A DNA stretch of 64,000 bases, taken from contig NC_043006.1 of NCBI RefSeq assembly GCF_006345805.1, forward strand, positions 4,588,001 through 4,652,000, in the 5' to 3' direction. The stretch comes from Octopus sinensis. Lineage: Eukaryota. The position numbers and the translations under genes are program-made. A model generated the notes under the pieces. That model had not been told where the DNA came from and ran no database searches. It saw only the letters and a list, made by a program, of their open reading frames with translations. This document shows, piece after piece, positions 632 to 52,826 of the stretch. The stretch's first letter is position 1; each line of letters starts with the position of its first letter.

Positions 632-664
<33 letters not shown>

Positions 665-666
<2 letters not shown>

Positions 667-896
667 CGGAGATGTACTCGCATAGCAAGTAATTTGATCT
701 GAGATCGTGTGCTGAAACGAAAACAATTGCAGCGTGGAAGGTGTTTATAAGCCATTTAAGAAACACACAAAAGCCGTTCGATTCACTTCAACATTTAAGT
801 TTAATTTGTCATTAAACTTAAATGTTGAAGTGAATCGAACGGCTTTTGTGTGTTTCTTAAATGGCTTATAAACACCTTCCTCGCTGCAATTGTTTT
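665..896. mobile_element. Fold-back element, same family as 52113-52413, truncated before the ribozyme motif
   Basis: Inverted arms 720-805 / 811-896; left extension TACGGAGATGTACT shared with 52113; flanked by (TA)n. Confidence 0.8.
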
Positions 897-2916: not shown

Positions 2917-3156
2917 GGTACTACTTTAGAACAGTGGTCCCGGTGCGCGCACTCACGTACTCGCGCATCGGCGCTAGCTAGTCATGACTAGTCGATCCTT
3001 ACTTTGTGTTTTTGTGTGTTATTTACTTTGTGTAAAAATTATTTACTTTGTGTTTTATTTACTTTTCTAGGTAGTCGTTGTAGGATCGACTAGTCACGAC
3101 TAGCTAGCGTGGATGCGCGAATGCGCGCACAGGGACCACTGTTCTCAAGTAGTACC
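2917..3156. mobile_element. MITE with long TIRs and 8-bp TSD, Merlin-like
   Basis: TIRs GGTACTACTT.AGAACAGTGGTCCC... / ...GGGACCACTGTTCT.AAGTAGTACC; TSD GAACTGGT at 2909-2916 and 3157-3164; inserted in an RTE 3' fragment. Confidence 0.85.
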
Positions 3157-4685: not shown

Positions 4686-5249
4686 GTAATTGAAAACTTA
4701 TGTTAAGTTGTAATTTTATTTTACAATAAGTAAAGTATAGTGTGGAACTGATGATGGACTTCATCATCATTATCATTTAACGTCCGCTTTCCATGCTAGC
4801 ATGGGTTGGACGATTTTGACTGAGGGCTGGTGAACCAGATAGCTGCACCAGTCTCCAGTCTTGATCTGGCAGAGTTTCTACAGCTGGATGCCCTTCCTAA
4901 CGCCAACCACTCCGAAAGTGTAGTGGGTGCTTTTTACGTGCCAGTCAGGCGGTACTGGCAACGACCTCGCGAAGGTTCTTGTGTTAAAAATTGTTGCAAG
5001 TTTTGCTGATGGCGGTGTCATTGTTTTTGTGTATTTTACTAAAGCAAGAGACCACTTGTGCTAAATGGAGGTAATTCAGTGGTAGATCTGGTTCCACTCT
5101 TACCAGTATGGAAAAATGGACAAAAGATGAAGATGATGATGATGGTGTACTGATGATAGTGATGGTGGATGATGATGTTTATCACAACAATTACTTTAGC
5201 TCCTCATTTTGGTTAAAGCCTTTATATCATTTCACAACTTTTCACAATA

Positions 5250-17632: not shown

Positions 17633-17936
17633 TTTACATTATTTATATTTGATGGATAATAGTCCTCATCTTGTTTGTTGTTAACACAACATTTCGGCTG
17701 ATATACCCTCCAGCCTTCATCAGGTGTCCTGAGGAAATTTTGAACCTGGGTTCTCATTCCTAACGTATTTTTCGATGTTATTATAATTATTCAGGTCACT
17801 ACCTGGAATTGAACTCGGAATCTTAGGGTTAGTAGCCCGCACTCTTAACCACTATGCCATATGCCCAGGCATATGGTGTAGTGGTTAAGAGCGTGGCTAT
17901 TAACCCCAAGATTCTGAGTTCGATTCCAGGCAGTGA

Positions 17937-17977
<41 letters not shown>

Positions 17978-18147
17978 TTGAAAAAAGCCTTAGGAATGAG
18001 AACCCAGGCTCGAAATTTCCCCAAAACACCTGATGAAGGCTGGAGGATATATCAGCTGAAACGCTGTATTAATAACAAACAAGATGAGGACAAATATCTG
18101 TCAAATGTAAATAATGTACATAATTCCTCATCTCTTAAATATGGAAC
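17633..18147. mobile_element. Fold-back element with back-to-back tRNA-like heads and hammerhead-like motifs (Penelope-like non-autonomous element)
   Basis: Inverted arms spanning 17635-18118 centred near 17866; unpaired right-hand extension to 18147; 12-bp TSD AATATAATTTAG at 17621-17632 and 18148-18159. Confidence 0.8.
18025..18070 (+). ncRNA. Minimal type I hammerhead-ribozyme-like motif (degenerate); mirror copy at 17683-17728 on minus strand
   Basis: AACAC-CTGATGA-A-GGCTG(loop)CAGCT-GAAAC-GCT-GTATT; two-arm consensus restores CAGCC-GAAACGTT-GTGTT. Confidence 0.6.
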
Positions 18148-50836: not shown

Positions 50837-52112
50837 TTAATGAAGCGTTTCTCACAAATTCAGAACAACCAAATAGATTGGTAGAAAAACAAAGTTTCAC
50901 TCTGATGATATTTAAGAAAAAAGACTGAGAGAGAAAGAGAGAGAGAGAGATACATGCACACACATGCATATCCATCCATCCATCCACACACACACACACA
51001 CCACACACACACACACACATACATACAACAAGCTTCTTTCTGTATCCGTCTACCATATCCATTCACAAGACTTTGGTTATCTTTGGGATACAGTAGAAAA
51101 TTCTTGGCCAAGGTGCCAAGCAATAGGACTGAACCTGCAACCATGTTCCTTTATGAAGTTTTAGTCAACTCGTGTTGATTATGTTTATGAAGATCATTGG
51201 CATAACACTGGAAAATGTTCCACAAACTCAGCATAATATGTCTAGAATATTCTTTCTGCACACATGATATCTTTTCCTGGAAAGATGAAAGGCTGTCATC
51301 AAAATTTTTTAATTTTTGCCAGTACCGCCTGACTGGCCCTTGTGCCGATGGCACGTAAAAGCACCCACTACACTCTCAGAGTGGTTGGCATTAGGAAGGG
51401 CATCCAGCTGTAGAAACTCTGCCACATCAGATTGGGGCCTGGTGCAGCCACCTGGCTCACCAGCCCTCAGTCAAATCGTCCAACCCATGCTAGCATGGAA
51501 GGCAGACGTTAAACGATGATTAACTTGTCTGGGTTAAGCAGCTATTTGAAAATATAAAAATAGACTGAAGCTAATGATTTTACTGGATCGATTGGAAGAT
51601 TTAATTAGAGATGAAGGTTCAAGTATTGAGATTGTTAGGGAGAGGGAATTATTTAGTTTTGCCATCATCTAAATTACTGCTGTACTTTCTGGTATACAAG
51701 TTGAATTTTTCTGACAAGAATTCACAGTCAGAAAAAGGTATGTTGATTTATACGCCAAGATAACTTTGGAGGCGGTGAGCTGGCAGAAACATTAGCATGC
51801 CAGGTGAAATGCTTAGCGGTATTTTGTCTGCCGCTATGTTCTGAGTTCAAATTCCACCGAGGTCGACTTTGGCATTCATCCTTTCGGGGTCGATAAATTA
51901 AATACCAGTTACGCACTGGGGTCGATATAATCGACTTAATCCCTTTGTCTGTCCTTGTTTGTTCCCTCTGTTTAGCCCCTTGTGGGCAGTAAAGAAATAA
52001 GATGACTTTGGAGGACCAAATTTCTATGTGAACTGTAGAAGGATTTGGAGAGTGAGCGTGACAATGTTTGAATGTTTACATTACATGTTTACACAATATA
52101 CTATGTTGGTTT

Positions 52113-52413
52113 TACGGAGATGTACTTGCATAGCAAGTGACCTGATCTGAGATCGTGTGCTGGAACGAAAACAATTGCAGCGTGGAAGGTGTTTATAAGC
52201 CATTTAAGAAACACACAAAAACCGTTAGATTCACTTCAATATTTAAATTCAATTTGCCAAAATATTTTCATCGCTTTGAGACCACAACCTGTTCACTGAC
52301 AAAACTCCGTGCTGCATCTCAGAGTTTTGTCAGTGAACAGGTCGCGGTCTCAAAGCGACGAAAATATTTTGGCAAATTGAATTTAAATGTTGAAGTGAAT
52401 CTAACGGTTTTTG
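52113..52413. mobile_element. Asymmetric fold-back element with variant hammerhead-like motifs in both arms
   Basis: 11-bp TSD TATGTTGGTTT at 52102-52112 and 52414-52424; arms meet at loop 52308-52321; about 100-bp unpaired left extension. Confidence 0.8.
52326..52376 (+). ncRNA. Minimal type I hammerhead-like motif with G3:C8 core
   Basis: TTTGTCA-GTGAACA-G-GTCGC(GGTCTCAAA)GCGAC-GAAA-ATAT-TT-TGGCAAA: 7-bp stem I, 5-bp stem II, palindromic stem III. Confidence 0.6.
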
Positions 52414-52533
52414 TATGTTGGTTTGTATGCTAGAAAATATGGCCTGTTAAATAAAATACCAGTTACATACCATTTCCTTTCTGCTCAGCGTTGGATATCA
52501 TTGGTACTTATTTTGCTTTGTTCTTGTTTTCAG

Positions 52534-52826
52534 ATTCTTGCTACTTCAGTCTTGATATTTGAGTCTATTCTTCATATTGTACTGATTGACACAGCTGAAG
52601 ATGGTCGCACTGTTTATGGCTATCAGCTCTTCACTTGTCTAGTGTACCTTTGTGGCTGGACTATAACAATGAAACTAGTATGCTTAGAAAGACACCGTGC
52701 CTTGCCCTCGATACCTACAAGAAGCCATGGACTTGTTTTGCTTGTCTTTTGGACATTAACATATGTACGAGAGAATATTGCTTTTGTATCTTGGTTTAGT
52801 CCAGAATGGTGGTGGCATTTAAGGGG
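52534..52826 (+). CDS. ABCB6: ABCB6 coding exon (TMD0)
   Basis: ILATSVLIFESILH...LERHRALPSIPTRSHGLVLLVFWTLTYVRENIAFVSWFSPEWWWHLRG, typical ABCB6 LLLFWT..ENLA.VSW.SP.WWW motif; tttcag acceptor, gtaagt donor. Confidence 0.93.

What the first reader, a model, noticed from the sequence alone, without database searches (positions are those of the whole stretch)
52102..52424. Second fold-back family carries a hammerhead with a swapped G3:C8 core
Seen: a TSD-flanked (TATGTTGGTTT) asymmetric palindrome. At 52326-52376 it has UUUGUCA/UGGCAAA (stem I), GUGAACA plus an extra G, GUCGC/GCGAC (stem II), GAAA and palindromic AAUAUU (stem III). A CpG-decayed mirror copy lies on the minus strand near 52253-52303. 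Established: C3 and G8 of the CUGANGA core form a tertiary Watson-Crick pair, and compensatory swaps can retain activity. GUGAACA is exactly such a swap, so canonical motif searches would miss it. Inference: a PLE-derived family with a non-canonical ribozyme. The sense-strand copy ends about 160 nt upstream of the ABCB6 acceptor at 52533.
Basis: partly seen in the sequence, partly recalled or inferred. Interest (0 to 1): 0.8.

Follow-up and report, generated by a model that had tools for sequence, protein, structure and literature searches.

The report
Swapped-core hammerhead in Penelope retroelement
This is the leftover end of a jumping gene whose whole family carries a small RNA motif of the hammerhead type with two paired core letters swapped; sister families keep the same pair in other ways, so the motif is likely a real self-cutting RNA variant, although cutting is untested and this copy is predicted to be folded shut.

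Summary
The 323-nt feature is a head-to-head pair of terminal-repeat (pLTR) fragments of a Penelope-like retroelement; I found the parent, with RT, CxxxCxxC linker and GIY-YIG endonuclease, and its start codon lies in the left arm. G3:C8 is the family state (1,661 exact copies of one 29-mer; all 7 loci with the longest open frames; four other organisms). Agreement within the family proves little, since copies decay neutrally. The real support is between families: sister elements (53-59% protein identity) carry the homologous motif with U3:A8 or C3:G8 plus compensated stems, and six metagenome relatives are also paired. I found no natural G3:C8 hammerhead in print; the engineered swap is partly active. 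Against: cleavage is untested, genomic copies come from uncut RNA, a G3:G8 sub-lineage spread (74 copies), G3 is predicted to mispair with U17, and at this locus the 105-bp fold-back should bury both motifs, so an effect on the ABCB6-type transcript is unlikely. This scan noted G3:C8-like motifs before in four protist findings (unchecked). Verdict: new variant of a known ribozyme; interest 0.55.

The parts
52102..52112 (+). left target-site duplication (11 nt; last letters shared with element end)
   Evidence: 10-13 nt duplications flank other two-armed copies
52113..52319 (-). left arm: 207-nt 3'-terminal pLTR fragment, from the inferred splice acceptor AG through hammerhead, 5' UTR and the first 30 codons of the ORF, ending at the outer of the family's two usual 3' ends
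52114..52203 (-). first 30 codons of the element ORF (starts MAYKHLPR); the same frame runs on into the RT ORF in tandem copies L210 and L215/L205
52253..52303 (-). mirror hammerhead motif, G3 52296, C8 52291, stem II weakened by three CpG-type changes; predicted cut 52260/52259
52320..52419 (+). right arm: shorter pLTR fragment, stops just before the start codon (an unusual 3' end for the family)
52326..52376 (+). minimal type I hammerhead motif with G3 (52333):C8 (52338), unpaired G 52340, G10.1-C11.1, palindromic helix III, U17; predicted cut 52369/52370
52414..52424 (+). right target-site duplication (first six letters also fit the element)
52534..52826 (+). host exon, ABCB6-type N-terminal TM region; neighbour only

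Best explanation
The feature is a non-coding, head-to-head remnant of the terminal repeat of a Neptune/Nematis-type Penelope-like retroelement, and its family carries a minimal type I hammerhead motif with a naturally swapped G3:C8 core pair that likely still cleaves slowly as a dimer or with help from the element's protein. Shown: parent element with RT, zinc-knuckle-like linker and C-terminal GIY-YIG; motif 110-60 nt upstream of the start codon; G3:C8 fixed in two subfamilies that differ in loop II; sister families with U3:A8 and C3:G8. Inferred: the 3:8 pair forms only in the active fold, so its covariation means selection on a catalytically competent conformation; two motifs in a tandem transcript pair through the AAUAUU palindrome and cut after U17; the insertion arose when both target strands primed cDNA from uncut RNA and the two cDNAs were joined head to head. 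This copy is predicted to be inert because the two arms zip into a 105-bp hairpin.
For: Parent: 1,042-codon open frame with YVDD and CQSNCAVC linker followed by the same pLTR (L205); GIY-YIG above Pfam cut-off. All 7 loci with 715-1,042-codon frames carry G3:C8; 29 of 32 motifs beside endonuclease-picked loci are G:C. Family 2 U3:A8 (motif found in 29 of 30 loci, one degraded), family 3 C3:G8 with C9, family 4 C3:G8 (linked by flank similarity, no ORF seen). Five representatives align without gaps in core and stem II: 30 of 30 cells paired, 3 of 6 pairs with double changes, slid controls 7-54%. Metagenome relatives: 5 of 31 loci gave a motif, all on the coding strand behind the ORF, four C:G and one U:A, against 1 hit in five shuffles; a sixth (L503) read by eye is C:G with U15.1-A16.1. 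No variant at 8% or more at 3 or 8 in four other organisms. C3G/G8C partly rescues a PLE hammerhead, which needs protein (PMC11167929, section 3 part 2 read).
Against: No cleavage assay and no RNA end data. 60 of 82 copies picked by a downstream 22-mer include the core; only 1 of 82 (plus the window copy at 664-896) starts at the cut site. A G3:G8 variant has 74 exact copies against 13 for G3:A8 and 1,661 for G3:C8, some on both arms of one insertion, so an unpaired core can spread for a while. G3 pairs with U17 in the predicted monomer fold (P 0.65; MFE), the mirror of the inactive C3-G17 trap (PMC3884650, passages). Only about three independent 3:8 changes underlie the covariation, and the shuffle control ignores kinship. 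Hammerhead mutants did not impair insertion in vitro (PMC11167929).
Confidence: 0.62

Rival explanations
1. Same origin, but the G3:C8 motif is catalytically dead or negligible; it is kept as a folded element for protein binding or packaging, or is a relic that passed through drift.
For: Copies derive from uncut RNA; G3:G8 sub-lineage; predicted G3-U17 mispairing; the swap must cross an unpaired intermediate; insertion in vitro does not need cleavage (PMC11167929).
Against: A tertiary pair of the active fold stays Watson-Crick in all 4 families and 6 outside relatives examined; U4, G5, A6, G12-A14 are kept while loop II, loop III and flanks diverge.
Confidence: 0.3
2. The sense copy acts on the host ABCB6-type pre-mRNA, cutting the intron near the acceptor.
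For: It lies in sense, 157 nt upstream of the acceptor, with intact core letters.
Against: The antisense arm is transcribed first; predicted probability of the fold-back pair 0.9999 and of stem II about 1e-18; no second sense copy nearby to form a dimer; ordinary decayed insertion among thousands.
Confidence: 0.04
3. Chance resemblance inside a MITE or fold-back DNA element unrelated to hammerheads.
For: Rfam has no match; palindromic shape with a duplication resembles a MITE.
Against: Contiguous with an RT-endonuclease ORF at the usual pLTR place; homologous canonical motifs in sister families; controls 0.
Confidence: 0.02

Closest known systems
Minimal type I hammerheads of Penelope-like elements (Cervera and de la Pena 2014, PMC4209133; results, discussion and supplement file 2 parts 1-2 read)
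   Same: pLTR location, no stable helix III, palindrome at 15.2-16.2, unpaired letter between 9 and 10.1, G10.1-C11.1, U17 common, opposite-strand pairs, mostly truncated copies
   Different: G3:C8; of 56 representatives in Fig. S3, 53 are C3:G8, 2 U3:A8, 1 U3:G8, none G3:C8. The unpaired letter is G (consensus H) and helix I is 7 bp rather than 4-5.
Natural U3:A8 core variants (Perreault 2011, PMC3088659 section 8 read; PMC4209133)
   Same: Natural covariation of the 3:8 pair; family 2 here is of this kind
   Different: U:A is reached by transitions through a wobble; G:C reverses purine and pyrimidine and needs an unpaired intermediate
Engineered C3G/G8C double mutant of the Anolis Poseidon hammerhead (PMC11167929) and of other hammerheads (PMC8495972, PMC3884650, passages)
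   Same: Same core; same arrangement of motif near the ORF start, two 3' ends bounding a tail, AT-rich targets
   Different: Here natural and fixed in a high-copy family; tail about 57 nt rather than 30-40; activity unmeasured
Neptune and Nematis clades of EN+ PLEs (Craig 2021, PMC8557442, passages)
   Same: C-terminal GIY-YIG, CX2-5CxxC linker, inverted truncated copies, tail, (TA)n targets, intron-like 5' UTR
   Different: Clade not placed against reference sequences; Neptune is my recalled best guess

Membership tests
Penelope-like element (EN+) | single ORF with RT and C-terminal GIY-YIG | tested here: met
   L205 frame, YVDD; PF01541 25.4 bits over cut-off 22.6 on L161; 98 homologs. The full L205 protein itself had no Pfam hit; RVT_1 only weak on family 3
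Penelope-like element (EN+) | pLTR: partial tandem in which the 3' end repeats the ORF start | tested here: met
   unit runs on into the ORF in L207, L210, L215
Penelope-like element (EN+) | inverted truncated copies and optional tail | tested here: met
   195 of 222 arm ends (overlapping loci not removed) fall at two sites about 57 nt apart
Penelope-like element (EN+) | spliceosomal intron in the 5' UTR | tested here: inconclusive
   GT donor, branch-like and polypyrimidine-CAG signals in long copies; 0 spliced-junction copies in the genome; RNA not examined over it
Neptune/Nematis clades | CX2-5CxxC linker before the endonuclease | tested here: met
   CQSNCAVC in L205
Neptune clade | RT phylogeny with named references | not tested
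   trees held only unnamed relatives
minimal type I hammerhead | U4 G5 A6 A9, G12 A13 A14, A15.1-U16.1, H17 | tested here: met
minimal type I hammerhead | Watson-Crick pair 3:8 | tested here: met
   G:C; covaries to U:A and C:G
minimal type I hammerhead | literal C3 and G8 (CUGANGA) | tested here: not met
   G3 and C8; the point of the finding
minimal type I hammerhead | helix I, helix II closed by G10.1-C11.1, palindromic helix III | tested here: met
   double changes at 10.3-11.3 and 10.4-11.4
minimal type I hammerhead | site-specific self-cleavage | not testable with these tools
   no raw-read RNA run listed; needs an assay

The most novel reading that the evidence does not exclude
A natural, catalytically active G3:C8 hammerhead fixed in a recently amplifying animal retroelement family, with three sister families in one genome using G:C, U:A and C:G at the tertiary pair of the active fold; this shows selection for catalysis in PLE hammerheads, with the lineage's U17 (not C17) and dimer complementation allowing the swap to cross an unpaired state.
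Probability: 0.5. Interest if true: 0.7.

Novelty: new variant of a known kind. Interest (0 to 1): 0.55.

Why it matters
What PLE hammerheads do is open: they cut poorly in vitro and were dispensable for insertion in the one reconstituted system. A tertiary pair that covaries three ways among sister families argues that the active fold is selected in vivo, and gives a matched natural series for assays. It also shows that CUGANGA-anchored searches miss a family with thousands of copies, so reports of PLEs lacking hammerheads may need an N3:N8 re-search.

Tried and rejected
Rfam: no match. Peak of 5' ends at the cut site, suggested by the copy at 664-896: not found, 1 of 82. Within-family covariation: none, decay is independent. 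Spliced copies: 0. RNA evidence: no RNA holder listed; contigs cannot show ends; nothing could be laid over the intron-bearing repeat, so expression and splicing stay open. G3:C8 in viral contigs for one stem II subtype: 13 matches, 0 complete folds, against 29/0 for an unpaired control and 110 of the 126 listed for C3:G8. Single-protein metagenome scan found nothing. DNA around database proteins P0001-P0004 was not obtained, so the core of the nearest outgroup (P0001) is unknown. Searching with P0001's endonuclease returned mostly family 1. Trees are quick trees; the careful one did not finish and L511's row is unreliable. Not held: Przybilski and Hammann 2007, Lunse 2017, Martick and Scott 2006; Lunse 2017 surveys PLE hammerhead variants and could contain G3:C8. 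Supplement file 1 of PMC4209133 and part 3 of file 2 were not read; Perreault's supplements were not opened.

Full report
Observation. The arms are 105 nt and 92% complementary; the left arm continues about 100 nt further. A relaxed scan of the window for any N3:N8 hammerhead layout returned 7 rows: the two arms, a canonical C3:G8 motif at -17723, and four weak rows. Rfam found nothing. The exon after the acceptor matches MTABC_N, so ABCB6-type is fair.

The family. The unit is abundant: 4,348 exact matches of a downstream 22-mer, 694 of one core pattern, 1,661 of another, controls 0. Arms end at two sites about 57 nt apart (195 of 222 ends, overlapping loci not removed), often in TA runs; 33 of 68 two-armed copies share 8 or more non-TA-run letters across the flanks against 425 of 4,556 mismatched pairs, though about a dozen of the 68 belong to one composite sub-family. 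Longer copies extend upstream through an acceptor-like signal, a microsatellite-rich stretch and a donor-like signal to a GIY-YIG endonuclease frame. L205 holds a 1,042-codon frame with RT, CQSNCAVC linker and endonuclease, followed by the same repeat. In tandem copies the unit runs on into that ORF; the start codon is inside the window's left arm at -52203. So the window holds two pLTR end fragments joined head to head, the architecture described for PLEs (PMC8557442, passages). A database protein labelled Octopus vulgaris (P0006) looks the same by eye as sister family 3, which suggests the host group.

Is the motif a hammerhead? Within the family the question cannot be answered: in the first 100 listed of 694 matches, counted by hand, 83 are G3:C8, 9 differ at 3, 9 at 8, 1 at both, none is C3:G8; 54 of 60 informative rows are G:C in a sample picked by a downstream word. 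That is neutral decay from a G3:C8 master. The state is stable, however: a second subfamily with a different loop II and the longest open frames keeps it (7 of 7 loci), and DNA contigs from four other organisms show no variant at 8% or more at either position. Between families the answer is clear. Family 2 (53-54% identical to family 1 over the C-terminal 420 residues) has U3:A8 behind its ORF; family 3 (54%) has C3:G8 with C9; a fourth repeat related by its flank has C3:G8. Families 1-3 form a clade in quick trees (SH-aLRT 99 and 93). Core and stem II align without gaps, all 30 cells pair, and 3:8, 10.3:11.3 and 10.4:11.4 show double changes; by eye stem I positions 2.2 and 2.3 and pair 15.2-16.2 are compensated too. 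Among 31 metagenome loci of relatives, many cut short, 5 gave the same layout on the coding strand behind the ORF (four C:G, one U:A; 1 hit in five shuffles), and L503 gave a sixth by eye. C3:G8 is therefore the likely ancestral state and G3:C8 derived. The number of independent events is small, about three.

Mechanism. Established: C3:G8 is a tertiary pair of the active fold (PMC3884650, passages); minimal PLE hammerheads cut weakly and as dimers (PMC4209133); the Anolis PLE hammerhead needs protein, is partly rescued by C3G/G8C, is dispensable for insertion, and both target strands are extended from two internal start sites (PMC11167929). Inferred here: the family 1 motif cuts after U17 in tandem transcripts through pairing of two AAUAUU palindromes; a drawn double-hammerhead scores -25.4 kcal/mol against -30.6 for the best dimer fold, so it is possible but not favoured without help. 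G3 is predicted to wobble with U17; a G3-C8 variant was reported to do worse with C17 than G17 (PMC3884650, data not shown there), which suggests that the lineage's U17 eased the swap. Genomic copies come from uncut RNA: 1 of 82 starts at the cut site. A G3:G8 sub-lineage exists (74 against 13 for G3:A8; 33 share a loop change, 19 of them on C20), showing that an unpaired core can spread, perhaps complemented in dimers. At this locus the fold-back should bury both motifs.

Prior knowledge. Natural covariation in print is U3:A8 (PMC3088659 section 8; PMC4209133). Searches for G3C8, G3-C8, GUGANCA, C3G with G8C, octopus with hammerhead, and PLE core variants (listings seen) found only engineered swaps; none of 56 published representatives has it; none was seen in viral contigs for one subtype. 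Three key papers were not held, so absence from print is not certain. This scan noted G3:C8-like motifs with an extra letter in four findings on other DNA; I did not check them.

Verdict. Real motif, PLE-derived (about 0.97), hammerhead homolog with a natural G3:C8 core (about 0.92), still cleaving (about 0.6), relevant to the host gene (about 0.04). New variant of a known kind; interest 0.55.

Noticed in passing
window 664-896: Second copy of the family (second subfamily); its minus-strand arm starts exactly at the predicted cut site, but this is rare among copies and fits microhomology with stem I.
   Followed up: yes
window 17677-17734 (-) and about 18020-18075 (+): Another inverted repeat element with a canonical C3:G8 minimal hammerhead on both arms; parent not sought.
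   Followed up: no
L061-L130: 5' ends gather at the inferred splice acceptor: 27 of 57 stop 9-16 nt upstream of stem I (acceptor at 13), 6 run well into the intron, 23 are shorter or unresolved; no spliced copies found. Unexplained; may mark an RNA 5' end or an RT stop.
   Followed up: partly
G000:C20 2.0-7.0 Mb and 17.4-17.7 Mb: G3:G8 sub-lineage with a linked loop change, 22 of 74 copies on C20, several beside endonuclease frames.
   Followed up: partly
L285 3710-6841 and downstream: Very homogeneous sister family 3 with a 1,044-codon frame and a C9 core variant; C9 recurs with U3:A8 in L505.
   Followed up: partly
L503 about 4960-5015: Relative with C3:G8 but a U15.1-A16.1 swap, a variant described in PMC3088659.
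   Followed up: no
L067, L071, L074, L089, L091, L095, L101, L109, L110, L117, L124, L126, L129, L130: One two-armed insertion with shared flanks recurs many times, so it was amplified inside another repeat.
   Followed up: no
L162 7297-9282: 662-codon frame of an unrelated PLE-like element, no similarity to families 1-3 and no Pfam hit.
   Followed up: no
window 2917-3156: Small inverted-repeat element with 83-nt arms, MITE-like.
   Followed up: no
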